A stretch of DNA of 64,000 bases from NCBI GenBank assembly GCA_964504715.1, contig CAZDEP010000003.1, positions 10,111 through 74,110 of the forward strand, written 5' to 3'. Shown here piece by piece: positions 2,871 through 23,897 of the stretch. Under the pieces are notes generated by a model, which saw nothing but the letters and a program-made list of their open reading frames with translations, was not told the origin of the DNA and did not search any database. The position numbers were made by a program, and so were the translations under genes. Every line of letters starts with the position of its first letter. Positions within the stretch are counted from its first letter, which is position 1. The DNA comes from an uncultured Candidatus Saccharibacteria bacterium (GTDB taxonomy: Bacteria > Patescibacteriota > Doudnabacteria > UBA920).

Positions 2871-5800
2871 TTATTGAACAAAATCACTGGTAATATAATG
2901 GAAGTTGTCTAGAGGCGTTTTTGTTTCAGGCAATACTCCAGCCACAACCACATCCTTTCCAAAGAAGTTAGTTAGGGTATCACCTGGCTTTTGAAATAAC
3001 TTCTCAGCTTCCATAACTTGAGCTTCTTTGCTGCCAATATAAACTGGCAAATACCGCTTTGTTCCAAACGTTACCGGAAATAACCCGTCCCGATTAATGC
3101 TGCTACTATAAACGGCAGGGATAGTATTTTGATCTATTCCATAGAATAGCTTTAACTCATCTTTTGCCTGAGCTGCTGATGCGCCAGAAACCGAAGCGAT
3201 TTGGGTTTCAGTTTTCATGATATGGGTATTATCCAAAAATGTTCCGGTCGGTTTTAAAATACCCACAATCTTCATGCTTGGTATGCCAAAGAAATTGGCC
3301 AGGGTATCGCCAGGCTTCTCAAACAGTTTTTCTTTTTTCATCATTTCCGCCTCATCGTAGCCGATGATCATTTCGTCTTTTCCTAAATTTCCAGATCCTT
3401 CTGCCAACGGCATATCAATATTCCCTTGGTTAGTTTGCAAGAAGAATTTTGGATTATTCTCGGCAAAGTTTACCCTCATGACAGACTGCTTTATCAGGTT
3501 CTGGCTCTTTTGCGTAATCTCAGGAGATGCCTTAACAACAGTCATGGCTTTGGTTGGTTCTGCCATGCGCGAGCTGAATTGGGCGAACTCAAAGAATACA
3601 AGGGAAAAGAATACGGCCATGGCCACCGGAGCCAATGCGGATATCCAGTTGCGTTTGGTCGGCTTAAAGAACCGCAAGGTCAGGGAATTTGTAACAACCG
3701 AAACAGAGCTTAAAGCCATAGCTAGCCCAGCTAGTTCTGGCTTCAAGACCAACCCCAAACCCATAAATACGCGAGCAGCAATTGGGATGCCTACGACATT
3801 GTAGAATAACGCAAAGAACATATTTTGTTTAATTTTGCTCATGGTTTCGCGGGAGAGCTGGATGGAATTGACCACATCATTCAAGTCGCTTCTCATAATT
3901 ACGATGCCGCCGGTTTCCATGGCAACGTCAGTGCCATTGCCCATGGCAATACCGAGGTTAGCCTGCGCCAGTGCTGGTGCGTCATTAATGCCATCGCCAA
4001 CCATGGCAACTTTCTTGCCATCCGCTTGCAGCTTTTTCACCTCGTTGGCTTTATCTTCCGGCAATACCTCTGCCAGCACATTGGTAATACTGACTTGGGA
4101 AGCAATGGCTTTGGCCGTGCGTTCGTTGTCGCCGGTGATCATGTATACCGTAATACCCATTTTCTGAAGCTTTTCAACTGCAGCTTTGGAAGTGGCTTTT
4201 ACAGTATCTGCCACCGCCACTACCCCAAGCAAATTCTCATTTGTGCCGAGCAACATGGCAGTCTTACCAGCTTCTTCAAGCCTTGATTGTTTTTTTCCGA
4301 CTTTCTCCGGGTTAATGCCTGCAACATCAGACATCATTTTGCGGTTACCAAAATAGTAGGTAATGCCATAAATATCGCCCTGCACTCCATGTCCGGGAAC
4401 GGCCTTGAAGTTTTTGACTTCCAGCAAATCCACATCTTCGTCCTGCGCGTGGCTATAAATAGCTTCCGCTAACGGATGCTCGGAAAGCTTTTCCAAGCTG
4501 GCAGCAATCTGCAAAACATCATCTTCGTCTTTGTCTGCAAACGCAAGAATATCAGTTACCTCCGGTTTGCCGTAAGTTAACGTTCCGGTTTTATCAAAGA
4601 TAATAGTATTGATCTTGCAAGCGGCCTCCAAAGGTTCGCCGCCTTTAACCAATATGCCATTTTCCGCACCCTTGCCAGTGCCTACCATAATAGCCGTAGG
4701 AGTAGCAAGTCCCAAAGCGCAAGGACAAGCGATGACGATAACGGCTGTAAACGCCATCAAGGCAAAAGCTAACGTTGCGCCTAGGAAGAAATACCAAACC
4801 AAGAACGTGATGACTGCAATCACAATAACCGCCGGAACAAACCAGGCGGAAATTTTGTCTGCAACGGCCTGTATGGGAGCTTTGGATCCTTGGGCTTCTT
4901 CAACTAAGCGGATAATTTGCGCCAGCACGGTTTCGCTGCCGACCTTAGTAACTTCAAACTCAAAGCTGCCGGTCTTGTTAAGGGTTCCACCTGCCACGTT
5001 ATCTCCAACCTTTTTTTCTACGGGCAAGCTTTCACCGGTCAACATAGATTCATCAACGGCGGAGGATCCTTTAATAATACGTCCGTCAATTGGAATTTTT
5101 TCTCCGGGGCGCACGATGACAATGTCTTTATGGACAACTTGATCGATAGCGATATCCTGCGTGCCGCCATTGCGAATCACTCGGGCTGTTTTTGCCTGAA
5201 GACCCATTAATTTCTTAATGGAATCTGAGGTCTTGCCTTTGGTCCTGACTTCCAACCACTTACCCAAGATTACGAAGGTAATCAGAAATGCCGCGGTTTC
5301 AAAATATAAATCTTGAATTTTTCCGCCATTTAACCCGAGTAGAGTTTTATTTGCGACAGCGAAAAACACAAAAGTCACTAAGCTGTAAAAGTAAGCGGTA
5401 GAAGTGCCAATGGCTATTAAGCTATCCATGTTAAAGGTTTTCATCCGCAAGGCTGACCACATGCCCTTATAGAATCCCTTGCCAATAATGAACTGGACAG
5501 GTGTGGCAAGGATAAGGGAAACAATGCCTACATAAGGCAAAAGCTGCGCTTTGCCCGGCATCCAGCCAAAGAAGTCAAAGAACATGAAGTAAAGCATTGG
5601 CGCGCTCAAGATTGCGCTAAACAAAAATTTCTTCCAGTATGATCCAATTTCTGCCTGCCTTTTCTTGGCGTCGAACTCCGTATCTTTTGCATCAACCTCT
5701 TCGGCCTTATAACCAACTTTCTTTACTGCCGCGACAAGGTCTGAAATTTGAGTTTGGGAGTTATCGAATACAATTACGGCTTTTTCTGCCGCAAAATTTA

Positions 5801-6482
5801 CGCTAGCTTGGGAAACGCCCGAAACTTTCTTTAAAGACTTTTCAATAATGCCAGCACAAGAAGCGCAGTGCATGCCTGAAAGAGAAAGGCTGATTTTTCT
5901 GCTCTTGCTATTGCTCTCAATTGCGGCCGGAACGGCTGTCATGGCGACTGCCTGTGCCTGAGGTGACTGAATCCGCGGCGAATTTTGTTGTTCACTGCTG
6001 ACCTGATCAAAGACATTAAAGAACTTCGCGCTTTTCACTAATTGCTCTAAAAACCCTTTGGCCTCTTCTTGTCCTTCAGGAACAGCAATGTCAGCAGTTT
6101 TGTGGCTCGTATAAGTGCCTTCAAAATATGGCTTGCCAGTTTCTGATTCCATCACTTTCCCGTGCGCTTCCAAGCGAGTGTCCAATTTTACTGAAAAAGG
6201 TATTCCTTTTGCCACCCTGGTTTTTACTTCTATACTTTCGTTGGCAACAGGTTCTGAAGCTGTTCCTCCGCTGATTTCAGCGACATACCCCGCCCGCTTA
6301 ACAGCATCTGCAATTTGTTCTGTGGTAACCAGTTCAGGGTTTGCCTTGACTGTGCCTTTGCCTTCGGCAGCAGATATCTGGATTTCTCCTACGCCTGGCA
6401 ATTCTCTAAGTTCCTCCGTTATAAGTGTTTCGCAAGAGCTGCAATGCATCCCTTGAATGTTTAAATGTAAAGTATTTTCCAT
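2871..6482 (-). CDS. copA: copper-translocating P1B-type ATPase with two N-terminal HMA domains (GMHCSSC, GMHCASC) and an unusual C-terminal extension: one extra TM helix plus a tandem duplicated ~90-aa domain
   Basis: Motifs TGES, CPC ([12 protein letters not shown]), DKTGTLT and [10 protein letters not shown]. Two MxCxxC metal-binding domains. The C-terminal repeats share AEKLF.KPGDTL.NFFG...LDN.H. Confidence 0.9.
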
Positions 6483-8428: not shown

Positions 8429-9490
8429 TTAGACCCCGCAACCACCACCGCCCTTAGGTGCAACCGGCTCTACTTGGCTTCTAATTTGTTGGTATCCTTG
8501 GGCGCTGGAAAACGCTGCTCCCAATACTTCCTGCGGGTTGACCTGTTTCCAGTCAACTCCTTGGCTTTTTTTATACTTGGCTATTGTCAGGTAAGTATCC
8601 GGGAACCAATAAGAATTTACTGTTAGAGCATACTTATACATGTCCTGTTCGTTTACCCCTTGGGAAGCCATGAGTTCCAGCAAGCCCAGCATTGCCATCC
8701 CATGGTTGCAATCAGGGAAGTGGGTGGAATTGCCGCAGCAAGGGCGGAAGATTCCCCGCGAGACTTTATCTACAATCGCTTGCTGCTCTGCTGTTAAAGT
8801 TATAAAGCGATGTTTTGAATAGTGCTCCATGGCAGTTCCGCTGGCCAATGTCCATCCTCCCGTTGAGGCGAACTTTCCGGCATCGCCGCCGTATTGCTTA
8901 TCCCACATTTCGCCTTTATCCAGGATCTCATTTTTCTGTCCTAGTCCGAATGCCCAGAGAATATTTAACAGGCCGGAAGAATTTTGAGCGGTAAATTTGA
9001 TTTTCCCATTATTGCTTTCTGTCAGCATCTTTTTCATATCCGCTGGCATTCCGCCTCTTTGGGCATATAAGGCCTCTATTTTTTGCTGGTCAATTACTCC
9101 TTCTTTGACCAATTGCTTGCCTAAGTCTCCCCATACAACCGGCAATTCAAGGCCAGCGCTAGGTAAAACTTTTTCTTCCATATCTTTATCGATCGGAGCG
9201 GCGGCTGGCGCAGTTGAAGTTTGGGCTAAGGTCTGGGTGGTAACCGCCGTCTGTTGCGCCGGTTTGACACCCAATACTTTATTAAGCCAAGGTTTGCGTT
9301 TTACCGTAACCTGAAACTCAAAGGTAGAGGTTATGATAAGGATCGCGATTGCGGCCATTCCGGCCATTTCCAGATAGGAAAAGTCTTCCATGCGGGCATA
9401 TGTTTTTTTCAGAAACATTTTTATCCCGCTTTTTTCATGATGGTGTTCAGTAATTTTTTGCTCTTCACCGGGAACATGATGGTTTTCCAT
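8429..9490 (-). CDS. membrane-anchored hypothetical protein with a His-rich N-terminus (HHVPGEEQKITEHHHE) and a Cys/His cluster CCGNSTHFPDCNHGM; putative metal-binding exoprotein
   Basis: 353 aa, a single TM segment after the His-rich tail, and a conserved-looking Cys/His cluster. No family recognised. Confidence 0.55.
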   Translation of the reverse strand: MENHHVPGEEQKITEHHHEKSGIKMFLKKTYARMEDFSYLEMAGMAAIAILIITSTFEFQVTVKRKPWLNKVLGVKPAQQTAVTTQTLAQTSTAPAAAPIDKDMEEKVLPSAGLELPVVWGDLGKQLVKEGVIDQQKIEALYAQRGGMPADMKKMLTESNNGKIKFTAQNSSGLLNILWAFGLGQKNEILDKGEMWDKQYGGDAGKFASTGGWTLASGTAMEHYSKHRFITLTAEQQAIVDKVSRGIFRPCCGNSTHFPDCNHGMAMLGLLELMASQGVNEQDMYKYALTVNSYWFPDTYLTIAKYKKSQGVDWKQVNPQEVLGAAFSSAQGYQQIRSQVEPVAPKGGGGCGV

Positions 9491-11476: not shown

Positions 11477-11508
11477 AAAAAACACCTTTGCAATCTGGTG
11501 CAAAGGGT
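11477..11508 (-). terminator. rho-independent terminator (hairpin cctttgc/gcaaagg followed by a U-tract on the minus strand)
   Basis: 7-8 bp GC-containing stem and a 7-nt loop. An A6 run on the plus strand gives U6 on the minus strand. It lies in the 184-bp gap after the 11567-12016 gene. Confidence 0.5.
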
Positions 11509-12479: not shown

Positions 12480-14663
12480 TTATGATAGGCTCTTGCGTCT
12501 AAGCATAACGGCATTTAATGCAACAATAACTGTGCTAAGCGACATAAATACTGCCGCTAAAGCAGGTTGCATTAATATTCCTTTTGAAGCCAGAACCCCA
12601 GCCGCCAGCGGCAATGCAACAACATTGTATCCAGTCGCCCAAAACAGGTTTTGAATCATCTTGGAGTAAGTCAGTTTTGAAAGTTTTATGACTTTAGGAA
12701 TATCGCGCGGGTCATTTTTGACTAAAATAATTCCAGCCGACTCAATTGCTACATTTGTTCCAGCACCAATGGCAATACCTAAGTCTGCCTGCGTCAGAGC
12801 CGGTGCGTCATTAATCCCGTCGCCGACCATGGCAACTTTTAAACCTTTGTCTTGCAATAATTTAACCTTACTAGCTTTTTGCTCAGGCAAAACCTTGGCA
12901 AAATATTCATCAATCTTCAGTTCTCCCGCAACCCAGGCAGCTACATCTTGAGAATCACCAGTAATCATCCCAACTCGGACACCCATGGCTTTTAACGACT
13001 TTATGGCTTCTCTTGATTCCTCACGAATAACATCTGCCAAGGCGATACTGCCAACCAGTTTTTTATCTACAATGACAAAGATAATAGTTTTACCTTGTTT
13101 TTCCGCTCGGCTGTTTTGTTCGACCAGCTGGCTATCCATCCCTGCCCCTGATTCTTGCAGAAGCGTGGCGCTACCAACAAAAACTTCTTTGCCGTCTACT
13201 ATTGCTTTTGTTCCTTTGCCTGGAATCCGCTGAAAGTCCAAAGCGGGACTAAACTGCAATTTCCTTTTTTCGACTTCCTGCATAATAGCTTTGGCAACCG
13301 GATGTTCGGAGTTAGCGTTGACTGAAGCGGCTAACTTAAGCACAAGTTCGGGACTGTTACCGGAAGAACCTATGAGCTTATCAATTCCATATTCGCCTTT
13401 AGTCAAGGTGCCGGTTTTATCAAATAATACAACATCAATATTCCTGGCGGCTTCTAAAGCTAAACGCTGCTTAACCAGCAGGCCATTCTTTGCCGCCATG
13501 TTTGTGGAAATAGAAGCGACCAAAGGAATGGCCAAACCTAAAGCGTGCGGACAGGCGACCACTAAAACCGCCACTGTTCTTTCCAGAGCAAAGTTAACCC
13601 CGGAACTATTTAATATCCAAATAATAAAAGTTAATATTCCGGACACCAGAGCGATTATGGTTAGATAAAAAGCGGCGCGATCTGAAAGCATTTGTAGCTT
13701 GGATTTGGAGCTTTGCGCTTCCGCGACTAATCGCATAACGCCGGAAAGAAAGGTTTTTTCTCCGATCTTGTCTACTTTTATCTTCAAACTACCATCACCG
13801 TTAATCGTACCGGCAATGGCTTCACTCCCAATGTCTTTACTAACCGGTTTAGACTCGCCGGAAACCATAGACTCGTTAACCTCCGATCTTCCTTCAGCAA
13901 TAGTCCCATCGGCTGGAATTTTTCCGCCCGGTTTAACTAAAATAACATCACCTTCTTTTAACTGCTCCAGCGGGATGATTTCGGTTTTGTTACCCCTTAC
14001 AACTTCCGCCGTGTCGGGTAAAAGCTTGGCCAGTTCCTTAAGCGCGCCTTGGGCGCCCTGGACGGCACGCATTTCCATCCAATGACCCAAAAGCATAATG
14101 GTAATTAGCGTGGTTAATTCCCAAAACAGGGTTTCGCCATTTAACAGTAATTTGGAATACAGACTATACACGTAAGCGACCGTAATCGCCATGCCAATCA
14201 AGGTCATCATACCCGGCTGTTTGGCTTTTAGTTCCCTGTAAGCTCCTTGCAAAAATACCCAACCGCCGTGAAAGAAGACAACTGAACCCAAAATTAAAGG
14301 AATATAACCTGACCCGGGGAAAACCGGAGCTGTAAACCCCAGCAGTTGGGTTACCATTTCAGAATACAAAACCACAAGCACGCTTAAAACAAGGCTCACC
14401 CAAAACTTATTTTTAAACACATTAACATTATGGCCTTCGTGCTTATTTACTCCTTCGTTGTGACCATTGTGTCCCATATGTTCTTCTGTTTCTGGGCCTT
14501 TTCTTTTTTCAGGCAATAATTGCATGCCGCAGCCCGGGCATTTGCCTGGCTGATTTTGCCGCACTTGCGGGTGCATTGGACAGGTATAAACAATATCCGA
14601 CTTCGGTTCTTCGATGTGATGCGTATGATTATGATGTTGGTGATTATTGTTATGCATAGTCAT
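12480..14663 (-). CDS. copB: CopB-type (P1B-3-like) copper P-type ATPase with a His-rich N-terminus and an N-terminal CPMHP-type heavy-metal-binding domain
   Basis: N-terminus HNNNHQHHNHTHH, then YTCPMHPQV...GKCPGCGM. Core motifs TGES-like, CPH (VVACPHALGLAIP), DKTGTLT and [10 protein letters not shown]. Confidence 0.85.
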   Translation of the reverse strand: MTMHNNNHQHHNHTHHIEEPKSDIVYTCPMHPQVRQNQPGKCPGCGMQLLPEKRKGPETEEHMGHNGHNEGVNKHEGHNVNVFKNKFWVSLVLSVLVVLYSEMVTQLLGFTAPVFPGSGYIPLILGSVVFFHGGWVFLQGAYRELKAKQPGMMTLIGMAITVAYVYSLYSKLLLNGETLFWELTTLITIMLLGHWMEMRAVQGAQGALKELAKLLPDTAEVVRGNKTEIIPLEQLKEGDVILVKPGGKIPADGTIAEGRSEVNESMVSGESKPVSKDIGSEAIAGTINGDGSLKIKVDKIGEKTFLSGVMRLVAEAQSSKSKLQMLSDRAAFYLTIIALVSGILTFIIWILNSSGVNFALERTVAVLVVACPHALGLAIPLVASISTNMAAKNGLLVKQRLALEAARNIDVVLFDKTGTLTKGEYGIDKLIGSSGNSPELVLKLAASVNANSEHPVAKAIMQEVEKRKLQFSPALDFQRIPGKGTKAIVDGKEVFVGSATLLQESGAGMDSQLVEQNSRAEKQGKTIIFVIVDKKLVGSIALADVIREESREAIKSLKAMGVRVGMITGDSQDVAAWVAGELKIDEYFAKVLPEQKASKVKLLQDKGLKVAMVGDGINDAPALTQADLGIAIGAGTNVAIESAGIILVKNDPRDIPKVIKLSKLTYSKMIQNLFWATGYNVVALPLAAGVLASKGILMQPALAAVFMSLSTVIVALNAVMLRRKSLS

Positions 14664-14669
14664 AAAGTT

Positions 14670-15446
14670 TTAATATCCTTTAAATTCTTCAGTTATAATA
14701 TTATTTTTACTAATACTTAATCCATTGAGTAATTTTCTCATAGCCGTTACCATGACTGGGGGTCCTGCCAAATAATAAATCAGGGTCTGAAAGTTGTCTA
14801 AATATCTCTCCAACATTGTTCGATCTATGTATCCGGTTTCTCCTTGCCATGTTTCCTTTGATTCGTGGAGTTCAGTCATGGTTGGAATTAATTTGAAATT
14901 TGGATTCTGCTTCGCCAGCTCTTCCAATTCTTTCAAAAAAGGAGCATCCTCCGGCTGCTTGTTGGAGTAGAAGAGAAACAGCTGATGGGGCAATTTTCTT
15001 TCTGCAACATCTTTAATTATTGAAAATACCGGGGTGATTCCTATGCCGCCAATCAGGAAAACTGCTGGTTTTGATTCATCATTATGCAGAGTAAATGACC
15101 CATGGATGTGTTCAACTATAACCTTACTTTCCGGGTTCATGCTCCCTAAAACTCTCTTAAACGCGGTATTTCGCATCCGTGTGGCAAAGAGCAGTTCTTT
15201 TTCCGCGGGTGAATTTGCCAGTGAAAAATGGCGGCTACTGCCTTCGTCGTCGGTTTCGGGTGGATTAATAAGCTTCATATTTAAATGCTGGCCTGCTCTA
15301 AAAGAAAATCCTTGCGGCTTTTCAAAAAAGAAAGCCATGGTGCCCTCCGCGACCTGTTTTTTTCCCTTTAGCGCCACTTCAAACACTCCGCCGCTGGCTT
15401 CGGGGTGGTGGTGTGTTTGATTATGATGGTGATGATCGTGATTCAT
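14670..15446 (-). CDS. ferredoxin-NADP+ reductase-like FAD/NAD(P)-binding oxidoreductase with a His-rich N-terminal tail
   Basis: The RHFS (RxYS-type FAD-binding) and GGIGITP (NAD(P)-binding) motifs of the FNR superfamily. N-terminus MNHDHHHHNQTHHH. Its stop lies 6 nt from the copB-like start. Confidence 0.75.
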   Translation of the reverse strand: MNHDHHHHNQTHHHPEASGGVFEVALKGKKQVAEGTMAFFFEKPQGFSFRAGQHLNMKLINPPETDDEGSSRHFSLANSPAEKELLFATRMRNTAFKRVLGSMNPESKVIVEHIHGSFTLHNDESKPAVFLIGGIGITPVFSIIKDVAERKLPHQLFLFYSNKQPEDAPFLKELEELAKQNPNFKLIPTMTELHESKETWQGETGYIDRTMLERYLDNFQTLIYYLAGPPVMVTAMRKLLNGLSISKNNIITEEFKGY

Positions 15447-15449
15447 AAA

Positions 15450-16142
15450 TTATGCAAATAAATATTTATAAAATAATTGAGATTGGTCTACTACGACCTG
15501 CAAAAAAGGATATTCATTGTCCAAATTACTTTCTGCTTTAGGAAGAATGAGAAAACCTTGCACCGTAATTTCTTCGTCTGAAGTCGGCACTACTTGAAAT
15601 TCGCCTAAGTCTTTAATATTTGAGGACTGATTTCTTGTTGACAGCAATTCGCGGTTGCCGACCCGCTGGGTTAACAGCACATAGTCGCCATTGGTATATA
15701 AAAATTCTTTGACAGTGCGCTGGGTGTCAATTTCCACAAACCGCAATAGCCCCCATTTGGCCTTGGCAATAGACACAATAGCAGAAGCCAATAGGTTATT
15801 GAATATTGTTTTCTTATGTTGCTTGGTATATTTTGAACTGGCCAACAACTCGCTGCTTAAGCGCTTGAACAATGGCAATCTGGTATTTACTGAACCAATA
15901 TACTTAAATGAATCCAATAATTTCCCCTGTGAAATCCGTAAATCTTCCTGCAATTTTTTACTCTTTTTAACCTCTTGTTGATGCAAATAATATATTGCAA
16001 CGCCCGCCCCAACAATAAATATTGTTACAAGGGATTCCGCATAAGCTTCGGGCAGTATCCCAATATGGTCGGGGACCAAGTGTGGGTGAATGACTAAACC
16101 GACAAACAGCAAGAAGTATATAATTTTTATAAATTTAGACAT
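15450..16142 (-). CDS. hypothetical membrane protein (two N-terminal TM segments plus a cytoplasmic domain)
   Basis: ORF in the operon. No motif recognised. Confidence 0.45.
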   Translation of the reverse strand: MSKFIKIIYFLLFVGLVIHPHLVPDHIGILPEAYAESLVTIFIVGAGVAIYYLHQQEVKKSKKLQEDLRISQGKLLDSFKYIGSVNTRLPLFKRLSSELLASSKYTKQHKKTIFNNLLASAIVSIAKAKWGLLRFVEIDTQRTVKEFLYTNGDYVLLTQRVGNRELLSTRNQSSNIKDLGEFQVVPTSDEEITVQGFLILPKAESNLDNEYPFLQVVVDQSQLFYKYLFA

Positions 16143-16144
16143 AT

Positions 16145-16801
16145 TTAGTGCATTCGTAAATTATTTTGAGGCTTCACTTCAATTTGGTAAGCGCCTTCGG
16201 GTTCTCTATAACTAATAAGCAAACCCGAGGCAACTGCCAAAAATATCATCCACAAATACGCTGCCAATTTCATTTTGCTTTTACCCAATACTTCCACCAT
16301 TCTGAAGATTCCTGCCAAAATCAAGGAGGCGCCCAAATATCTATGAATAATCACTGCATTCATTACAGCCTCCGAAGTGCCATGTTGTTGGTGAGCCAAA
16401 AATAAAAGTCCAATGATTAATAAACCTGCCGGGAAGGCAACTTTTGCCCACAATTTATCTGTTTTTATACTATAAAATTCCAATGCTGCCGCAACCGTTA
16501 CAATAATGGCTATATACAAATGCTGGCGCTGCTGCGCGTCATAAATAGTAGCTTTAAAGGCTAGCTCCATTTCATTCCAATGATGTGAAAACGAAAAAAT
16601 GGGTAAAAATAATCCGGCCGCAAGTATTAAGCTTGGCCAGACATACTTCAGCCAGCTTGCCCGGTAAATTCCTGTTGCCTGGACGAAAGCAATAATAACC
16701 ACCGCGGAAAAAAGCCCGCCCTCAATCCAGTGTGCCAAGTTAGAAAGATAAATCAATTCTTCCAGTGTATGTAATTGTAGAATAAGCGGTAAATTTTCCA
16801 T
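16145..16801 (-). CDS. polytopic membrane protein with conserved His residues (possibly CopD-like)
   Basis: ~6 TM helices with the motifs SHHWNEM and HQQHG. It is adjacent to a small secreted HH-containing protein (a CopC/CopD-like arrangement). The assignment is speculative. Confidence 0.45.
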   Translation of the reverse strand: MENLPLILQLHTLEELIYLSNLAHWIEGGLFSAVVIIAFVQATGIYRASWLKYVWPSLILAAGLFLPIFSFSHHWNEMELAFKATIYDAQQRQHLYIAIIVTVAAALEFYSIKTDKLWAKVAFPAGLLIIGLLFLAHQQHGTSEAVMNAVIIHRYLGASLILAGIFRMVEVLGKSKMKLAAYLWMIFLAVASGLLISYREPEGAYQIEVKPQNNLRMH

Positions 16802-16802
16802 A

Positions 16803-17273
16803 TTATTTAAGTTGCCAGATAAAGCTTCTTATTGCCACATCGCCCACTTTCAAAATCCTTATTTCAATTTCCTTTGGCAAAGACGTGATCGTATTAAAAA
16901 TCAAATTGCCCTCAATATGATGCCCGCCGGGACCCGGGCCTTCCCAGTTTACCGCCTTATATTCTTTGCCTTGTTCATCAAACAATGAAACGGCTTTGGT
17001 TAAATCGTAGTCTAATTCTACGGTGTGGGTGTCCAAAACAATATTAAATTTCCATAGCTTTGAGTTTTGTGATACATCAAGCGGAGTAACATCAACCTTA
17101 ACTGGGCCCTCCTCATTAGTTTTGGCTTCTAAACCTGTTTGGGATCCCAAACTTGTGATGGGATTTTGAATGCTATCCGGATTGCTGGCGGTTTTATTCC
17201 TAGATAATAAAAATAAGACGGCCAAAACGGCAATAAAAAATACTACGATAATTAAAATTTTGTTATTTTTCAT
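16803..17273 (-). CDS. membrane-anchored extracytoplasmic beta-rich protein (possibly a CopC/YcnI-like copper-binding protein)
   Basis: N-terminal TM anchor, then WEGPGPGGHHIEGNL. It overlaps the upstream gene by 4 nt (ATGA). Confidence 0.45.
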   Translation of the reverse strand: MKNNKILIIVVFFIAVLAVLFLLSRNKTASNPDSIQNPITSLGSQTGLEAKTNEEGPVKVDVTPLDVSQNSKLWKFNIVLDTHTVELDYDLTKAVSLFDEQGKEYKAVNWEGPGPGGHHIEGNLIFNTITSLPKEIEIRILKVGDVAIRSFIWQLK

Positions 17274-17716
17274 ACCTGTTGCCTAAATTTAATTATCTGT
17301 CTGCCAACATAAATTATTCCAAAAAGGTTAAAGGCCAATCCTGCCCAGAAAAATTGCACCTGGTATTGCGCCACTACTGCCAGAAAACCCGCAATGCCTA
17401 AAATGGGAACGATGTTAACCAAGTAATGAGCGCAGCAAGAAATCATGGTCAAAGTGGAAGTGGTGCCGGTAACGGCCACCGCTTGTTTAGCGTGCGTCAT
17501 GTTGTGGTTTTGAATGGCGTTTTTTAAATAAACATACATGCCGATTTGCAAGCCAAACCCTACAGCTAAGCTCACCAAAAAATACCAGTATTTTATAAAC
17601 TGCTCTTTGGCAAAACTTGGTTCGGTAATCAAACCAACCGCGATGAAATAAACTGCGACCAACAAAACTGTTGCCATGACCCCCCAAAATATAGGCTTTT
17701 TCAAATTGCTCATCAT
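17270..17716 (-). CDS. hypothetical 4-TM membrane protein with a CC motif (ISCCAHY)
   Basis: Hydrophobic ORF, translationally coupled to the next gene. Confidence 0.5.
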   Translation of the reverse strand: MMSNLKKPIFWGVMATVLLVAVYFIAVGLITEPSFAKEQFIKYWYFLVSLAVGFGLQIGMYVYLKNAIQNHNMTHAKQAVAVTGTTSTLTMISCCAHYLVNIVPILGIAGFLAVVAQYQVQFFWAGLAFNLFGIIYVGRQIIKFRQQV

Positions 17717-17722
17717 ATGGAA

Positions 17723-17968
17723 TTAATGATTATGGTCATGGGGTGCGTCTTCAACCGGTTTTGACTCTGATTCATCATCTTCCTTTTTACCATGTCGCAT
17801 GCCAAAAAGATGGAAAACCACCATAAGCCCGACAGCGCCTAATATAGCCCACTTAAACCAGGAACTGTCTCCACCCCGGCCGGCAAACACCAAAAGCAAA
17901 ATCGGCAAAGCGCACCCAATCATCATCCACCACATCATATTGGAATTGTTGTCATTGTGATTGTGCAT
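17723..17968 (-). CDS. DUF2933-like small membrane protein with His-rich termini
   Basis: 81 aa, MHNHNDNNSNMMWWMMIGCALPILLL...HDHNH. This small-protein type commonly flanks heavy-metal ATPases. Confidence 0.5.
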   Translation of the reverse strand: MHNHNDNNSNMMWWMMIGCALPILLLVFAGRGGDSSWFKWAILGAVGLMVVFHLFGMRHGKKEDDESESKPVEDAPHDHNH

Positions 17969-17980
17969 AAATTTAGATGA

Positions 17981-18250
17981 TTAATTTTTACCTACTAAAC
18001 TGGAATTGTGCATCCAGACCATGTAAGCCCCAAAGACCCAAGCTATAATGGCAATTAAAATTGCTCCCCAGATAAAGCTGCCAAAGCTTATCCACGTAAA
18101 ACCGGGCAGGGTTTCAAATAACTGATGATGCAATTCTACTGCTCTTTGGCTGCGAAAAGGCAGGAATCCGCCAACCAGGCAAAGCACGTAAGCTATCTCT
18201 GCTCCCAATACGCACTTCTTTACATAAGATTTAAAAGACAGTTTTTCCAT
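17981..18250 (-). CDS. small membrane protein (89 aa)
   Basis: Two hydrophobic helices in the same operon. Confidence 0.45.
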   Translation of the reverse strand: MEKLSFKSYVKKCVLGAEIAYVLCLVGGFLPFRSQRAVELHHQLFETLPGFTWISFGSFIWGAILIAIIAWVFGAYMVWMHNSSLVGKN

Positions 18251-18268
18251 ATATTTGCAGTTAGTTGA

Positions 18269-18505
18269 TTAGTTTTTGTTTAGTTCTAACTTTTTTGTTT
18301 CAAATTCCTCCTTGCTTATTTCGCCTTTGGCATAGCGTTCTTTAAGAATGTCGAGGGCAGAACCCGCATGAGTGGTAAGTTTACCGCTTGCTTCAATGGT
18401 CAGCCAGATTACAAAGAATATAATCCCCGTCCAAATCAGCATCATAAGAATATCTCCAAAAATACCCCAGCCGAGCATATGCCCAAAATAATAATTACCC
18501 ATCAT
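18269..18505 (-). CDS. SHOCT-domain small membrane protein
   Basis: TM helix followed by ALDILKERYAKGEISKEEFETKK, the characteristic short C-terminal (SHOCT) domain. Confidence 0.7.
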   Translation of the reverse strand: MMGNYYFGHMLGWGIFGDILMMLIWTGIIFFVIWLTIEASGKLTTHAGSALDILKERYAKGEISKEEFETKKLELNKN

Positions 18506-18519: not shown

Positions 18520-18798
18520 TTATCTGTTGGCTAAATGGTAAATTTCTATCAGTTCCTTGACTGCCTTATCATTCTGCCCGGAGGTCTGCATTTGGTGCTT
18601 GACGTGGGTTCTAATGTGGTTTTCCAGCAAAAGCTGGTCAAGACTCTTAAGCGACCTTTGAATGGAAAGGGACTGGCGCAATATAAGGGGACAGTATTCC
18701 TCTTTGTCTATGGCTTTGATTAGGCCTTCCATTTGCCCTTTTAGTATTTTTGCCCTATGGAGAGTTTTTGCTTTTAGTTTTTGGTCTAATTGGTGCAT
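18520..18798 (-). CDS. csoR: CsoR/RcnR/FrmR-family (DUF156) metal-sensing transcriptional repressor
   Basis: 92 aa helical protein. HRAKILKGQMEGLIKAIDKEEYCPLILRQ plus downstream His residues match the CsoR Cys/His ligand pattern. It sits between the ATPase and the membrane-protein genes. Confidence 0.8.
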   Translation of the reverse strand: MHQLDQKLKAKTLHRAKILKGQMEGLIKAIDKEEYCPLILRQSLSIQRSLKSLDQLLLENHIRTHVKHQMQTSGQNDKAVKELIEIYHLANR

Positions 18799-18822
18799 AA
18801 ATAGGCTGTTTTGTTAATAGTC

Positions 18823-18866
18823 TATACCCCTATACCCTATTTTAGCAGGTTAAAAAAAATTGTCAA
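18823..18866 (-). promoter_or_regulatory. candidate sigma70-like promoter (TTGACA -16nt- TAAAAT) with an overlapping direct repeat tataccc-c-tataccc (candidate CsoR operator) upstream of csoR
   Basis: Read on the minus strand: ttgacaattttttttaacctgctaaaatagggtatagggggtatag. The -35 overlaps the stop codon of the upstream ATPase gene. Confidence 0.4.
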
Positions 18867-20750: not shown

Positions 20751-22361
20751 CTATTCTACCTTAAATTTCATCATCATGCCACTTTCTAGATGTTCAGCAA
20801 TATGACAATGCGCCATCCAAACGCCGGGATTGGTAACGTCCAAGAGGATTTCAACAGTGTCTCCGGTTTGAATAAGCGCCGTGTCTTTCCAGACCAGGTT
20901 GTCGTTTTTTACCCCGTTGGTCGAAAGCACCAGAAATCGCTGGCCGTGGAAATGAATGGGATGCTGCATCGGGTGCATGGCGTTGGGGTCGTTGAAAATC
21001 TTGATTTTAACCTTGTCGCCGACTTTAAATTTCCAGTCTATATCCATGTTCTTTTTGCCCGTAACGCTGTCAGTAAGTTGCCAAGTTAATGTTTTGGTTG
21101 TGGAATTGACGTTCATCATGTCCATGTCGTCTTCCCATTCGATTTTTTTGATGCCACCGGACATGCCCATGGCGTCATTGTCCATCATCATGCCGTTGCT
21201 CATCATATGCTGGCCCATTCCACTATTCATCATGCCGTTTTGAGATCCCATATTAACCGCCAGGGTCAGGGTCTTGTCCGGCTGTTTGTCGAAGTACGAC
21301 CTAAAGGGATCTATGCTGGCCTGCACATCTTTATTGGTTCTTAGCATGTTAAATTCCTGGGCGTAAGAAGGATTAGCAGAATCGGCTGAAACGTTTATTT
21401 TCGCCAGAGGGTAAGTTTGTGGCGAGCTCCTGTGCTCTAAGGTAAAACTGCCGGGCTGGGAAAATAACACGTCGACAATGGCGCGCTCGGACGGACTAAT
21501 GATAATATTTTCCACGAACTGCTCTTTTTCGTATTTGCCGCTGTCGCCGCCCACCAGCTTCATTTTTGCTCCCGGCAAGTTAACGTTAAAAGTACGGGTA
21601 TTGGCCGCGTTGGTCAGATACAGTCTGACCAACTCGCCCTTTTTGGCGCTGATTTGATAGTTGGTTTCGCCGTTGACCAGCATAACGTCGCCAAACCTGC
21701 CCATCAGAGTGTGGTCAGCGGTTTCAGCATTGAACGCTGTAATGCCATTATCGTCAAACAGAACGTCATCCAAAAATAGCGCCTGCTCCTGGTTTACCGG
21801 CGACCAATAATCAGGGTCGTTCGATGACACTAAGAAATTGCCGTAAAGTCCCATTTCCTGGGCATAATCTTCCCGGATGTGTGGATGATACCAATACATA
21901 CCTTCGTCCGGGAATTTGATTTTGTAAGCAAACGATTCGCCAATCCCGACTGCTTTCTGGGTCACGTCCGGCACGCCGTCAAAGGCATTGTCCAGCCTGA
22001 CGCCGTGGGAATGAATGGTCGTTGGCACGTCGGTGTTGTTGGTAAAATTTATGGTTACTTCCGAACCCTTAGCCGCTTTAATTAATGGCCCCGGCACAGA
22101 GCCGTTATAACCCAGCATCTTAACTTCTAAATTTCCGATTTTTTTTCTGACAATGTCCGCGGTCAAATTAAAAGTGTCGCCGTTTTTTAATTCCACGGTT
22201 TGCTGGGGTTTGGCTTCCGGCAGCTGGCCTAAAGATTGGCTGGAAAATTTAATTTGCGAACCGGCCGGTTTTGGACTTTGCGATTTGCTTTTTATCAGCC
22301 ATACGGAACCGGCCGCGACCAGCAAAACGGCAATTATTAAATATATGCTGTTTTTTTTCAT
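20751..22361 (-). CDS. multicopper oxidase (CueO/laccase-like) with a Met-rich insert
   Basis: Signal peptide. Copper-ligand motifs HSHG, WYHPH, HPIHFHG and HCHIAEHLESGMMM. Met-rich segment MGSQNGMMNSGMGQHMMSNGMMMDNDAMGM. Confidence 0.9.
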   Translation of the reverse strand: MKKNSIYLIIAVLLVAAGSVWLIKSKSQSPKPAGSQIKFSSQSLGQLPEAKPQQTVELKNGDTFNLTADIVRKKIGNLEVKMLGYNGSVPGPLIKAAKGSEVTINFTNNTDVPTTIHSHGVRLDNAFDGVPDVTQKAVGIGESFAYKIKFPDEGMYWYHPHIREDYAQEMGLYGNFLVSSNDPDYWSPVNQEQALFLDDVLFDDNGITAFNAETADHTLMGRFGDVMLVNGETNYQISAKKGELVRLYLTNAANTRTFNVNLPGAKMKLVGGDSGKYEKEQFVENIIISPSERAIVDVLFSQPGSFTLEHRSSPQTYPLAKINVSADSANPSYAQEFNMLRTNKDVQASIDPFRSYFDKQPDKTLTLAVNMGSQNGMMNSGMGQHMMSNGMMMDNDAMGMSGGIKKIEWEDDMDMMNVNSTTKTLTWQLTDSVTGKKNMDIDWKFKVGDKVKIKIFNDPNAMHPMQHPIHFHGQRFLVLSTNGVKNDNLVWKDTALIQTGDTVEILLDVTNPGVWMAHCHIAEHLESGMMMKFKVE

Positions 22362-22364
22362 GTT

Positions 22365-22922
22365 TTACCTCGCTAATGTTTCCGGCGATTTGTTCTTGTT
22401 CGCCTTAATGAATTCTAAAATTTTAGCTTCGTCATAATTTTCCATCTTTTGCAAGCGCCCCCAGGAAGCCAGGACGATTTTGGAATCATTTGCCGATCTT
22501 GGGGTCATTATAATACTGCTGGAATTGGCTTTAGTTATGGCTTCAAGGCTTGCTTTGGTCTGGTCGTCGATGTCGTTATAGGAAATCCAGATGCCGCCGT
22601 GTTCCAGATTGTGGATCATTTTAACGTCCGGCTGCACATCATCAAACACGCCCCACTTTTCCGCATACTCAAAATGCGGGCCGGAAGTCGGCGGATTGGA
22701 ATTATATTCGGCTTTAAAGTTAATGTCTTTGGTGTGATCCCGTCCCAAAATGGGAATTTCCTCTCCCACCTGGGGCAGATTGGAAGACGCCTCCCTCACA
22801 GCGAGCTTACTGGCTTTCTGGTCCTGCAAGAACAGTAAAACACCCAGTCCTAATGTGCCAACCACTATCAATATGATGATAATAATTTTTTTTCCGCCTC
22901 CAGCGGACATGGTTTTGTTCAT
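22365..22922 (-). CDS. DUF3105-domain membrane-anchored protein
   Basis: NSNPPTSGPH...HNLEHGGIWISY pattern typical of DUF3105. Its stop is 3 nt from the MCO start. Confidence 0.65.
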   Translation of the reverse strand: MNKTMSAGGGKKIIIIILIVVGTLGLGVLLFLQDQKASKLAVREASSNLPQVGEEIPILGRDHTKDINFKAEYNSNPPTSGPHFEYAEKWGVFDDVQPDVKMIHNLEHGGIWISYNDIDDQTKASLEAITKANSSSIIMTPRSANDSKIVLASWGRLQKMENYDEAKILEFIKANKNKSPETLAR

Positions 22923-22934
22923 AATGCTGTAAAA

Positions 22935-23369
22935 TTACTTTTTCAAATCCCCGATATAATATTGTTCCAGCATTTTTCTGGCGTTTTCCGAATGGGGAAT
23001 CTTGGAACCCATTGGCCTGGTTTCAAACAATTTCGTAGCATCTATGCCGCAGGCCTGGAAAATCAATTCTCCGCCGGGATGGCTATTACTGGCAAATTCC
23101 AGGATATCATAAACCCTACCATGGATAATAGCCCAACACTCCTCGGAGTCGGGATCAGCGCCATGAGCGGCTACTTCTTCCATAGTATAGGTTTTGGCCG
23201 GCATGGTGACGCTTTCCATTTCCGTTTTGGCGGTTTCTTGTTGAGACCTGGTCTGTTGCTCCATATTTTGTGTGGTATCTGATTTAACCCGGGTCTTATC
23301 CTTTTTGAAATACAGAACCGACAATATTGCCACTGCCAGAATTAATAAACCTATTGCAACCTTTTTCAT
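22935..23369 (-). CDS. cytochrome b5-like heme-binding domain protein, membrane anchored
   Basis: N-terminal TM segment. The C-terminal domain has the HPGG motif (FASNSHPGGELIF) and a Y..D.......HPGG pattern. Confidence 0.75.
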   Translation of the reverse strand: MKKVAIGLLILAVAILSVLYFKKDKTRVKSDTTQNMEQQTRSQQETAKTEMESVTMPAKTYTMEEVAAHGADPDSEECWAIIHGRVYDILEFASNSHPGGELIFQACGIDATKLFETRPMGSKIPHSENARKMLEQYYIGDLKK

Positions 23370-23884
23370 TGTTTATTGATTATTTTACAGACCTGCTCCG
23401 TGGGATAGGAAATTATCATGAAATACAACGTCATTAGCAATAAAACTATTGCCACGACAGATATTTCCGTTCCTTGGAAAGGAAAATACACTAGACTGCC
23501 ACTTAGTCCCAGCAAGGCAAGGATGGGCAGGCCACACAGGGCGCAACCGCTGCTGACAATCGCCAAAAGCGAACTACCTCCAACCATGATATGTAGCTTC
23601 CCGCCACCCCGCAATACAGATATCCGTAAACCAAGCAAAGTTAAATTAATTCCAGTTAAAACTGCGGTAAAAGCAAGTAGGAACAAAGAAACTTTAGTCA
23701 TTGCCGTCCACATTCCGCCAAGCAAGATGATGAGCAGTCTAAATTTATAAGATAGCGGAAAACTGCCAAAGATAGTGTCCTTTACCAAAATGAAATTCAT
23801 CAAGTAAACAGCCAAAATAATATATATAACGGCAATGCCTAAGCTTAAGCTCAAAAATTTTTTAGATAACAAGATTTCTCTCAT
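23366..23884 (-). CDS. hypothetical polytopic membrane protein with a CALC motif
   Basis: 5-6 TM helices. It overlaps the downstream gene by 4 nt. Confidence 0.5.
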   Translation of the reverse strand: MREILLSKKFLSLSLGIAVIYIILAVYLMNFILVKDTIFGSFPLSYKFRLLIILLGGMWTAMTKVSLFLLAFTAVLTGINLTLLGLRISVLRGGGKLHIMVGGSSLLAIVSSGCALCGLPILALLGLSGSLVYFPFQGTEISVVAIVLLLMTLYFMIISYPTEQVCKIINKQ

Positions 23885-23897
23885 CCGGATTTTTAGA

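What the first reader, a model, noticed from the sequence alone, without database searches (positions are those of the whole stretch)
14663..15446. His-tagged FNR-like NAD(P)H oxidoreductase translationally coupled to the CopB-type ATPase
A ferredoxin-NADP reductase-fold protein (RHFS, GGIGITP motifs) with an MNHDHHHHNQTHHH N-terminus ends 6 nt before the start of the His-rich CPH-motif ATPase. A cytoplasmic flavin reductase tethered to a copper pump suggests NAD(P)H-driven Cu(II)->Cu(I) (or Fe(III)) reduction prior to export. I do not know this pairing as a described system.
Basis: inference. Interest (0 to 1): 0.6.

Follow-up and report, generated by a model that had tools for sequence, protein, structure and literature searches.

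The report
His-tailed flavin reductase in copper-efflux operon
A small NAD(P)H-dependent flavoprotein with a histidine-rich metal-catching tail sits directly in front of a copper-export pump, and its close relatives recur in copper-resistance gene clusters, which makes it a candidate for the dedicated bacterial copper-reducing enzyme that has so far been missing, although its activity is untested.

Summary
ORF 14670-15446 (- strand, 258 aa) is a confident FNR-fold flavoprotein with RHFS and GGIGITP motifs and a disordered tail, MNHDHHHHNQTHHH. It stops 6 nt before the first ATG of a His-rich, HMBD-bearing CPH/YN(x)4P/MSxST (CopB-type) ATPase. The gap is 12 nt if the public gene call is used.

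Both genes lie in a roughly 7-kb same-strand gene string behind a CsoR-like repressor. That string sits inside a metal-resistance island with three P1B ATPases and a multicopper oxidase.

The linkage recurs, but only in part of the family.
- **Close relatives.** These are the His-tailed short form and a sister form with a two-helix membrane anchor. They occur mostly in Saccharibacteria-type MAGs and in Mesorhizobium. They lie within 6 kb of a P1B ATPase, CsoR or multicopper oxidase in 21 of 30 loci, with variable gene order and variable partner pump.
- **Bare relatives.** The abundant tail-less ~240-aa form, 50-59% identical, never shows this linkage (0 of 97).

The His-rich tail is conserved in composition in at least 40 cluster representatives.

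I found no description of this pairing. The best reading is a copper-regulon NAD(P)H:Cu(II) reductase or metal-handling flavoprotein that feeds Cu(I) pumps. This function is inferred and has not been shown. "Tethered" and "translationally coupled" overstate the evidence.

The parts
14670..15446 (-). H-type FNR-like NAD(P)H flavoprotein reductase, 258 aa (stop codon 14670-14672)
   Evidence: ORF; Pfam and NCBIfam; AF2 model pLDDT 90.5; Foldseek matches to NqrF, Fre and b5 reductase.
15387..15446 (-). His/Asp-rich N-terminal tail (residues 1-20, 8 His), predicted disordered
   Evidence: Sequence. pLDDT is below 50 for residues 1-18. Tails of the same composition are present in at least 40 of the 120 best cluster representatives.
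15087..15386 (-). Flavin-binding beta-barrel domain (residues 21-120). It carries PPETD (62-66), RHFS (72-75) and the clade-specific invariant His54.
   Evidence: Secondary structure; invariant columns; His54 is specific to the H and L clades.
14673..15086 (-). NAD(P)H-binding Rossmann domain (residues 121-258). It carries GGIGITP (133-139), YYLAGPP (224-230) and a C-terminal EEFKGY with an aromatic lid.
   Evidence: Pfam PF00175 over residues 131-238. The alignment to NqrF includes the Phe corresponding to NqrF F406.
14664..14669 (-). 6-nt spacer between the FNR stop codon and the first ATG of the ATPase (12 nt to the second ATG used by a public gene call)
12480..14663 (-). CopB-type P1B ATPase, 727 aa: His-rich N-terminus, HMBD (residues 25-51), CPH (371), DKTGT (415), YN(x)4P (679), MSLST (707)
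15450..16142 (-). 230-aa protein with 2 predicted TM helices and no family match. It ends 3 nt before the FNR start codon.
   Evidence: The same gene order is present in L171-L173.
16145..16801 (-). 218-aa six-helix membrane protein with four invariant His on the outer face. It is a recurrent component of CsoR/HMBD-ATPase operons.
   Evidence: It is adjacent to H-type FNR in L004, L008, L009 and L169.
16803..18505 (-). Five small membrane or secreted proteins of the same gene string: 156 aa, 148 aa, an 81-aa protein with His-rich ends, an 89-aa DUF5676-like protein, and a 78-aa SHOCT protein
   Evidence: Synteny with L008.
18520..18798 (-). CsoR/RcnR-family metal-responsive repressor with Tyr35-Cys36...His61...His65
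   Evidence: Pfam PF02583, E=1e-16; fingerprint.
18839..18866 (-). Best sigma-70-like promoter match of the region (TTGACA-16-TG-TAAAAT), followed by GGGTATAGGGGTATAG
   Evidence: This is a consensus match only.
11485..11506 (-). Intrinsic-terminator-like hairpin plus T-run; probable end of the gene string
   Evidence: This is a consensus match only.
20751..22361 (-). Multicopper oxidase (island context)
22935..23369 (-). Signal-anchored cytochrome b5 (HPGG motif), predicted to face outwards. It recurs near H-type FNR genes.

Best explanation
**What it is.** The gene encodes a soluble, cytoplasmic, two-domain FNR-fold flavoprotein that oxidises NAD(P)H. It carries a flexible N-terminal tail of about 20 residues, rich in His and Asp, that captures divalent metal.

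**Where it sits.** It belongs to a copper-stress operon that appears to start at a CsoR-type repressor and includes a CopB-type Cu pump.

**Most likely mechanism.**
1. Cu(II) bound to the tail, or to the equally His-rich N-terminus of the pump, receives one electron from the reduced flavin and becomes Cu(I).
2. Cu(I) is the form that P1B copper pumps transport.
3. The pump exports Cu(I), and the island's extracytoplasmic multicopper oxidase turns it back into the less toxic Cu(II).

**Shown.**
- The fold and the cofactor and nucleotide motifs.
- The disordered, conserved His tail.
- The operon-like arrangement.
- Clade-specific, recurrent linkage to copper-resistance genes.

**Inferred.**
- That the enzyme acts on copper at all.
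- The direction of electron flow to copper.
- Any hand-over of copper to the pump.
- Co-regulation by CsoR.
For: **Fold and motifs.**

**Operon-like arrangement.**
- The gaps are 2, 3 and 6 nt around the gene.
- The best promoter-like site lies just upstream of csoR, and a terminator-like hairpin lies at 11485-11506.

**Recurrence of the linkage (distinct sequences with at least 2.5 kb of flank).**

| Type | P1B ATPase within 6 kb | Any of ATPase / CsoR / MCO within 6 kb |
|---|---|---|
| H (His-tailed) | 9/11 | 10/11 |
| L (membrane-anchored) | 8/19 | 11/19 |
| Bare | 0/97 | 0/97 |

Fisher P is 2e-13 to 3e-17. These figures are not corrected for phylogenetic relatedness.

**Selection for proximity.**
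- Gene order varies: FNR before the ATPase in the window, L008 and L088, and after it in L004, L005 and L170.
- Pump types differ: CPH or CPD.
- This argues for selection on proximity rather than one frozen synteny block.

**Links to copper regulators.**
- L-type genes directly follow csoR, with gaps of 1 nt or less, in L013-L015.
- Some of these regulators have the canonical Cu(I) C-H-C site (L004, L170).
- A 34%-identical, tail-less FNR sits in yet another CsoR copper operon.

**The tail.** It is conserved in composition across at least 40 cluster representatives.

**Phylogeny.** The H and L types form neighbouring clades apart from the bare type. They share an invariant His54 that is Phe in most bare forms. 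By strand pairing, beta3 (54-59) with beta4 (71-76), His54 lies next to the flavin-contacting Ser75. This placement is an inference.

**Electron-donor precedent in the family.** Family members are fused to a ferric-reductase haem domain or to a Rieske domain. The module therefore feeds one-electron acceptors.

**Literature.**
- CPH (P1B-3) pumps have been reclassified as Cu(I) transporters.
- Specific bacterial cupric reductases are nearly unknown.
- Both points come from PMC7558416.
Against: - No biochemical data exist for any member.
- The catalytic core is 50-59% identical to abundant tail-less relatives that have no copper linkage. Apart from His54 and the tail, nothing marks it as a metal enzyme.
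- There are no Cys or Met Cu(I) ligands.
- No fusion to a pump or chaperone appears among the best 150 representatives.
- Neighbours are sometimes a CDF, a permease or DUF4396 rather than an ATPase.
- His-rich N-termini occur on four proteins of this island, including a DsbA-like protein. The tail may therefore be a general metal-buffering trait and not a device for delivering substrate.
- Cytoplasmic Cu(II) is thought to be reduced non-enzymatically, and Cu(I) is the more toxic form.
- The regulator here has C-H-H in place of C-H-C, so its metal specificity cannot be read from the sequence.
- The loci counted are related to one another, and most come from one phylum.
Confidence: 0.4

Rival explanations
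1. The protein is an electron donor to a protein partner of the envelope or copper-stress response and does not act on copper itself. It would be a two-component NOX-like or cytochrome b5 reductase-like chain. The FNR module would pass electrons, directly or through a membrane partner, to the outward-facing cytochrome b5 or to another redox protein of the island, for example to repair copper-oxidised envelope proteins.
For: - A signal-anchored HPGG cytochrome b5 gene recurs 1-8 kb from H-type genes (window, L004, L007, L169, L170).
- Cytochrome b5 reductases are among the structural matches.
- One family member is fused to a ferric-reductase haem TM domain.
- The sister L-type carries two TM helices with invariant His.
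- A Fre-MsrQ precedent exists (from my own knowledge).
Against: - The window protein is soluble, while the b5 domain is predicted to lie outside the membrane.
- The conserved His of the neighbouring 218-aa membrane protein all lie on one face, so it does not look like a transmembrane di-haem wire.
- That membrane protein also occurs in copper operons without any FNR.
- This model does not explain the His tail.
Confidence: 0.2
2. The protein is a general copper-induced flavin, quinone or nitro-type reductase that limits oxidative damage or restores reduced cofactors or Fe-S proteins during copper stress. It would be analogous to the copper-induced nitroreductase CinD of Lactococcus lactis. The His tail would only buffer or sense metal.
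For: - The best family-level similarity is to the free-flavin reductase Fre.
- The bare relatives are widespread stand-alone enzymes in variable contexts.
- His tails are an island-wide trait.
- Copper-regulon flavoenzymes, and Cu(II)-binding flavin reductases such as NfoR, have been described.
Against: - It does not explain why only the tailed and anchored clades are tied so closely to pumps and regulators.
- It does not explain why two paralogous forms flank the same pump in L004, L005 and L170.
- It does not explain the clade-specific His54.
Confidence: 0.2
3. The protein is a passenger or a metal sponge. The gene would travel with a mobile metal-resistance island without a redox role in copper handling. 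The tail would simply add metal-binding capacity, and the adjacency would reflect compact genomes.
For: - The islands are evidently exchanged between phyla. Identity is 50-60% between Saccharibacteria and Mesorhizobium forms.
- The genomes are gene-dense, with tiny gaps everywhere.
- Transposase and recombinase genes lie near some loci.
Against: - The flavin and NAD(P)H motifs are invariant across the clade, which implies purifying selection on catalysis.
- The linkage persists through rearrangements and with different pumps.
- Bare relatives give 0 of 97.
Confidence: 0.1

Closest known systems
Fre / LuxG NAD(P)H:flavin reductases and the NqrF FAD-NADH module (FNR superfamily)
   Same: - Two-domain fold.
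- RxFS flavin motif.
- GGxGxxP nucleotide motif.
- C-terminal aromatic lid.
- These are the best sequence and structure matches.
- Fre-type enzymes reduce metals indirectly through flavins (own knowledge).
   Different: - Only about 20-23% identity.
- All curated family cut-offs are missed.
- None of these enzymes has a His-rich tail or lies in copper operons.
CcoG, the specific bacterial cupric reductase (Rhodobacter capsulatus)
   Same: The proposed role is the same: enzymatic Cu(II) to Cu(I) conversion that supplies a P1B ATPase pathway (PMC7558416).
   Different: CcoG is a membrane protein with two [4Fe-4S] clusters and an unknown electron donor, and it acts in cbb3 oxidase assembly. The protein here is a soluble NAD(P)H flavoprotein in a resistance operon. 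The two are not homologous.
MerA with its NmerA metal-recruiting domain
   Same: The design principle is the same. An NAD(P)H flavoenzyme in a metal-resistance operon carries a flexible N-terminal metal-binding appendage that hands the ion to the catalytic core (own knowledge).
   Different: - MerA is a pyridine-nucleotide disulfide oxidoreductase with redox-active cysteines.
- MerA has an HMA-fold appendage.
- MerA reduces Hg(II) to volatile Hg(0).
- Here the fold is FNR, the appendage is an unstructured His/Asp tail, and no catalytic Cys is present.
S. aureus copB-mco and other CsoR-controlled CopB operons
   Same: A CsoR-family repressor, a His-rich CPH pump and a multicopper oxidase occur in one resistance locus (PMC10233261).
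   Different: Those loci contain no flavoprotein reductase.
NOX/FRE ferric-cupric reductases and the Fre-MsrQ two-component system
   Same: - An FNR-like dehydrogenase module donates electrons towards metal or haem acceptors.
- One family member is fused to a Ferric_reduct TM domain.
- The SpNOX dehydrogenase domain is among the structural hits.
   Different: The window protein has no TM or haem domain, and no haem partner could be identified.

Membership tests
FNR-fold (ferredoxin-NADP reductase superfamily) flavoprotein | N-terminal six-stranded flavin-binding beta-barrel followed by a Rossmann-type NAD(P)H domain | tested here: met
   AF2 pLDDT 90.5 with strand and helix order as expected. 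Foldseek E 1e-17 to 1e-20 and TM 0.75-0.8 to NqrF, Fre, b5R and flavohaemoglobin reductase domains.
FNR-fold (ferredoxin-NADP reductase superfamily) flavoprotein | R-x-[YF]-[ST] flavin phosphate motif and G-G-x-G-x-x-P nucleotide motif | tested here: met
   RHFS at 72-75 and GGIGITP at 133-139. R72, G133, G134, G136 and P139 are invariant in 50 sequences.
FNR-fold (ferredoxin-NADP reductase superfamily) flavoprotein | Bound flavin and NAD(P)H oxidation | not testable with these tools
   Requires purified protein.
Fre (NF005963) NAD(P)H-flavin reductase equivalog | Score above the curated cut-off (230 bits) | tested here: not met
   91 bits. The protein resembles Fre but is not a member.
Ferredoxin-NADP(+) reductase proper (NF008178) / 'ordinary ferredoxin reductase' | Curated family score; ferredoxin or flavodoxin partner | tested here: not met
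   25 bits against a cut-off of 390. No ferredoxin gene was seen in the island.
Bacterial cupric reductase (functional class) | Catalysed Cu(II) to Cu(I) reduction | not testable with these tools
   There is only contextual support.
Bacterial cupric reductase (functional class) | Recurrent genetic association with copper homeostasis genes | tested here: met
   H type 10/11, L type 11/19 and bare type 0/97 within 6 kb.
P1B-3 / CopB-type ATPase (the partner gene) | TM4 CPH, TM5 YN(x)4P, TM6 MSxST, and a His-rich N-terminus in place of CxxC HMA domains | tested here: met
   CPH at 371, YNVVALP at 679, MSLST at 707, N-terminus MTMHNNNHQHHNHTHH, plus an HMBD domain.
Cu(I)-sensing CsoR (the regulator) | x-C-H-C first-shell fingerprint with Tyr ('A') and Glu ('B') second shell | tested here: inconclusive
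   The window regulator has Tyr35-Cys36, His61 and His65 (C-H-H). Related operons have either C-H-H or C-H-C. The fingerprint does not predict the metal (PMC4235346).
Two-component NOX-like system (FNR module plus haem b membrane partner) | Membrane partner with His pairs placed near both membrane faces to bind haems | tested here: not met
   All invariant His of the 218-aa neighbour map to the same, non-positive face. It has no fold match to cytochromes. It also occurs without FNR.

The most novel reading that the evidence does not exclude
The His-tailed (H) form and the membrane-anchored (L) form would be the long-missing dedicated cupric reductases of bacterial copper efflux. They would couple NAD(P)H to Cu(II) to Cu(I) conversion at the entrance of CopB-type and related pumps, making export redox-gated. 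A redox relay would then run from the reductase to the Cu(I) pump to the outer multicopper oxidase.

In the boldest version, the L form's two His-bearing helices dimerise around haem to form a minimal NOX-like transmembrane wire.
Probability: 0.3. Interest if true: 0.75.

Novelty: new variant of a known kind. Interest (0 to 1): 0.58.

Why it matters
Copper pumps of the P1B class, now including the His-rich CopB type, transport Cu(I). Much of the incoming copper, and the copper held by His-rich sites, is Cu(II).

A recent review calls the apparent absence of specific bacterial cupric reductases an inconsistency in the field and names only CcoG (PMC7558416).

A CsoR-linked NAD(P)H flavoprotein with a metal-catching tail, sitting next to the pump, is a concrete and easily expressed candidate for that missing step. 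It comes with a natural negative control, the 55%-identical tail-less relatives.

The finding also shows that ultra-small Saccharibacteria-type genomes invest in elaborate metal islands, and that these are shared with soil rhizobia.

Tried and rejected
1. **Genome scan with the single protein.** It found nothing. Repeating it with an alignment worked.
2. **Conserved neighbour for the tail-less relatives.** I looked for one to infer an ancestral function. Only a DUF488 gene recurs, in 19 loci, and the rest of the context is variable. This was not informative.
3. **Split NOX model with the 218-aa His-rich membrane neighbour.** Rejected because:
   - all conserved His lie on one face;
   - there is no fold match in the PDB;
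   - the protein occurs in copper operons without FNR.
4. **Direct cytochrome b5 reductase role.** This is weakened because the b5 domain is signal-anchored and predicted to lie outside the membrane.
5. **Plasmid collection.** It gave only generic 'FAD-dependent oxidoreductase' names at 45% identity or less.
6. **Fusion ('Rosetta stone') search among the best 150 representatives.** There was no fusion to pumps or chaperones. The only fusions were to a ferric-reductase TM domain and to a Rieske domain.
7. **Resources not available.**
   - The Purohit 2018 paper was not held. The Cu(I) reclassification is therefore cited through the review.
8. **Model coordinates.** They are not exposed, so I could not measure the distance from His54 to the flavin.
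Full report
**1. What is in the sequence**

On the minus strand, ORF 14670-15446 encodes 258 residues beginning MNHDHHHHNQTHHHPEASGG.
- It has eight histidines in the first 14 positions. The window-wide His frequency is 1.7%, so this is not chance (P about 2e-11).
- The first possible internal start, Met37, would cut into the first beta-strand. The tail must therefore be translated.
- RHFS (residues 72-75) and GGIGITP (133-139) are present.
- The stop codon at 14670-14672 is followed after 6 nt by ATG 14663, the start of a 727-residue ORF. A public gene call of the identical sequence uses the second ATG, 12 nt after the stop.
- An AAGGA element lies 12 nt before the first ATG. Co-transcription is very likely. 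Translational coupling is only an inference.

**2. Identity of the two proteins**

*The 258-aa protein.*
- It matches Pfam NAD_binding_1 (3e-20).
- Its best NCBIfam similarity is to the flavin reductase Fre, then BenC, flavohaemoprotein, MmoC and NqrF. All of these fall far below the family cut-offs.
- Against PDB sequences, the best hits are the NqrF FAD/NADH module and Fre.
- An AlphaFold2 model built on 50 homologues has mean pLDDT 90.5, and only residues 1-18 are disordered.
- Foldseek finds NqrF, flavohaemoglobin, benzoate dioxygenase reductase, cytochrome b5 reductases, Fre and the NOX dehydrogenase domain, at E 1e-17 to 1e-20 and TM about 0.75-0.8.
- It is therefore an FNR-fold NAD(P)H flavoprotein. 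It belongs to no curated family and is not an ordinary ferredoxin-NADP reductase (25 bits against a cut-off of 390).

*The downstream protein.*
- It is a P1B ATPase (TIGR01511, 587 bits).
- It has the complete CopB-type signature: CPH in TM4, YN(x)4P, MSLST, a His-rich N-terminus, and an HMBD CxxC/CPxC domain.

**3. Surroundings**

- Everything from about 24.7 kb down to 8.4 kb is on the minus strand and concerns metals or the envelope redox state. The components are:
  - a DsbA-like protein;
  - a signal-anchored cytochrome b5;
  - DUF3105;
  - a multicopper oxidase;
  - a CPC ATPase without a metal-binding domain;
  - a CsoR/RcnR-family repressor;
  - five small membrane proteins;
  - a 218-aa six-helix membrane protein;
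  - a 230-aa unknown protein;
  - the FNR-like protein;
  - the CopB-type pump;
  - further membrane proteins, DUF1573 and a DsbD-like protein.
- A third pump, a 1203-aa CopA with two HMA domains, lies at 2871-6482.
- The strongest promoter-like site of the region (TTGACA-16-TG-TAAAAT) sits immediately upstream of the repressor gene, and a terminator-like hairpin lies at 11485-11506. Both are consensus matches only.
- Gaps between genes in the string are 2-14 nt.
- The repressor has Tyr35-Cys36, His61 and His65. This is a C-H-H first shell with the CsoR-type Tyr second shell. Published work stresses that this fingerprint does not by itself predict the metal sensed (PMC4235346).

**4. Is the pairing recurrent?**

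The protein has thousands of homologues (4310 at E<=1e-3; 1627 50%-cluster representatives at E<=1e-30).

I collected 176 loci from genome, metagenome and assembly collections. These include three copies of the window's own locus (L171-L173) and three loci fetched for the 218-aa neighbour. The relatives fall into three forms.

| Form | Size | Distinguishing features | Where found |
|---|---|---|---|
| H | ~255 aa | His/Asp/Glu-rich tail of 12-30 residues, as in the window | Where named, in 'Candidatus Saccharibacteria' MAGs |
| L | ~350 aa | N-terminus M.Q.NHNMHGHFP and two C-terminal TM helices carrying invariant His | Saccharimonadia MAGs and cultivated Mesorhizobium |
| B (bare) | ~240 aa | No tail or anchor | Acidobacteriota, many Proteobacteria including Legionella and methylotrophs, Nitrospira and others |

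- A neighbour-joining tree of the cores puts H and L in adjacent clades, separate from B.
- Among distinct sequences with at least 2.5 kb of flank, the linkage counts are as follows.

| Form | P1B ATPase within 6 kb | ATPase within 300 nt | ATPase, CsoR or MCO within 6 kb |
|---|---|---|---|
| H | 9/11 | 4/11 | 10/11 |
| L | 8/19 | 5/19 | 11/19 |
| B | 0/97 | 0/97 | 0/97 |

- The remaining H locus carries an HMBD protein, a CDF transporter and a rhodanese gene.
- These counts are not phylogenetically independent, so the small Fisher P values overstate the certainty.
- Several features argue against a single frozen block:
  - the gene lies upstream of the pump in some loci and downstream in others;
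  - the pumps are CPH/MSxST in some loci and CPD/MSxSS in others, and CPC CopA in Mesorhizobium;
  - in three loci an L form and an H form flank the same CPH pump behind one CsoR gene;
  - L genes also follow csoR directly when the transporter is an ArsP-like permease or DUF4396/DUF305;
  - a 34%-identical, tail-less FNR lies in yet another CsoR operon that also encodes a cupredoxin-domain protein, with a Csp copper-storage gene just upstream.
- The constant theme is therefore the copper regulon. It is not the CPH pump specifically.

**5. The tail**

- In the 120 best 90%-identity cluster representatives, 40 are short forms with at least 4 His before the core. Most of the rest are L forms with their own His-containing N-terminus.
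- The composition is conserved but the sequence is not, which fits a flexible metal-binding appendage.
- In the window, the same kind of N-terminus is found on only three other proteins, all in the island: the pump, a 353-aa protein and the DsbA-like protein. This can be read either as a shared way of recruiting metal or as general buffering.

**6. Mechanism**

*Best-supported model (confidence about 0.4).*
- NAD(P)H reduces the flavin.
- The flavin reduces Cu(II) held by the tail, or by the pump's His-rich N-terminus, to Cu(I).
- The pump exports Cu(I).
- The outer multicopper oxidase re-oxidises it.

*Support from outside the sequence.*
- The review PMC7558416 lists P1B-3 pumps as reclassified Cu(I) transporters.
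- It lists as known bacterial Cu(II)-reducing activities only CcoG, NDH-2, unspecific quinol-mediated reduction in Lactococcus lactis, and an uncharacterised cell-free activity in Pseudomonas. In its text it also mentions CupA and an archaeal CopZ-FeS protein.
- It notes that the presumed lack of specific reductases is odd.

*Support from inside the family.*
- An invariant His54 is specific to the H and L clades.
- It is predicted, by beta3/beta4 pairing, to sit next to the flavin-contacting Ser75.
- Members of the family are fused to a ferric-reductase haem domain or to a Rieske domain. This shows that the module serves one-electron acceptors.

*Evidence against.*
- There is no biochemistry for any member.
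- There are no soft Cu(I) ligands.
- There are no fusions to pumps.
- The partners are variable.
- The cytoplasm already reduces Cu(II).
- Cu(I) is the more toxic form.

**7. Rival explanations**

- **Electron donor to a protein partner.**
  - A signal-anchored HPGG cytochrome b5 recurs near H genes, but it is predicted to lie outside the membrane.
  - The obvious membrane neighbour has all its invariant His on one face.
  - That neighbour has no cytochrome-like fold match and occurs without FNR.
- **General copper-induced flavin or quinone reductase of the CinD/NfoR kind.** This does not explain the clade-specific tight linkage or the paralogue pairs.
- **Passenger on a mobile island.** This is contradicted by invariant catalytic motifs and by linkage that survives rearrangement.

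**8. Comparison with known systems, and novelty**

- In fold, this is an FNR-superfamily enzyme closest to Fre and NqrF. It fails every curated family threshold.
- In design, it resembles MerA with its NmerA metal-recruiting appendage.
- In proposed role, it parallels CcoG. It is unrelated to MerA and to CcoG.
- CsoR-CopB-MCO loci are well known, for example in S. aureus (PMC10233261), but none contains a flavoprotein.
- Full-text searches for cupric reductases, CsoR regulons, Saccharibacteria or CPR copper resistance found no description of this pairing.
- I therefore rate it a new variant of a known kind: a copper-island-specific, His-tailed or membrane-anchored subfamily of FNR-like reductases. 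The function is still to be demonstrated.

**9. Verdict**

The linkage is real and clade-specific. It is broader than 'CPH pump', and the activity is untested.
- The candidate is worth a bench test, because a simple in vitro assay with built-in controls (tail deletion, H54F, a bare homologue) would decide it.

Noticed in passing
window 16145-16801 (-): This is a 218-aa six-helix membrane protein from a small family (43 hits). It has four invariant and four near-invariant His, a QQxQH motif and a C-terminal YREPEGAY, all on the predicted outer face. The AF2 model has pLDDT 93, but there is no fold match in the PDB. One member is fused to a CupA-like cupredoxin (CGMNM). It sits next to HMBD-ATPases in CsoR operons, with or without FNR. 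It is a likely new copper-handling membrane protein.
   Followed up: partly
L007:104-2332, L008:10677-12965, L009:2348-5065, L088:1221-3626: The P1B ATPases that pair with H-type FNR genes in these loci have an unusual TM4 motif, CPD, where CPC or CPH would be expected. They also have MSxSS in TM6 and an HMBD N-terminus. I could not place this motif combination in the usual P1B subgroups.
   Followed up: no
L004:4657-5673, L013:2564-3583, L015:9947-11002 and other L-type loci: The sister L form ends in two TM helices with an invariant His inside helix 1, an NP motif in the loop, and an invariant FK.KH after helix 2. A dimer could bind haem and act as a minimal NOX-like membrane reductase. This is pure speculation and is untested.
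   Followed up: no
P0199 and P0266: Members of the same FNR core family are fused to a Ferric_reduct haem TM domain (451 aa) or to a C-terminal Rieske domain (357 aa).
   Followed up: partly
window 8429-9490, 12480-14663, 14670-15446, 23898-24719 (all -): Only four ORFs of the window have at least 4 His in their first 20 residues, and all four lie in the metal island. They include a DsbA-like protein and a 353-aa protein with a CCGNSTHFPDCNHG motif.
   Followed up: partly
window 18520-18798 (-) and 18799-18866: The CsoR-family repressor has a C-H-H first shell in place of C-H-C, together with the CsoR-type Tyr35. The same is seen in most related Saccharibacteria-type operons, while L004 and L170 have C-H-C. 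Just after the promoter-like -10 element lies GGGTATAGGGGTATAG, which resembles CsoR half-sites (GGGGTAT).
   Followed up: partly
window 2871-6482 (-): This 1203-aa CopA-type ATPase has two HMA domains, CPC, and a C-terminal extension of about 330 residues after the last TM helix. The extension contains an internal duplication (…[15 protein letters not shown]… / …[15 protein letters not shown]…).
   Followed up: no
window 22365-24719 (-); L004:12439-15389; L007:12204-14555: A conserved block of DsbA-like, unknown, cytochrome b5 (HPGG, signal-anchored) and DUF3105 genes accompanies the copper genes in several Saccharibacteria-type contigs.
   Followed up: partly
L032, L034, L039, L042 and 15 further bare-type loci: The tail-less ~240-aa relatives are followed after about 19 nt by a DUF488 gene in 19 loci. 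Otherwise their context is variable and their function is unknown.
   Followed up: no
window 15450-16142 (-): A 230-aa protein with two N-terminal TM helices and no family match is wedged between the 218-aa membrane protein and the FNR gene. The gaps are 2 and 3 nt. It is seen only in the window's own lineage (L171-L173).
   Followed up: no
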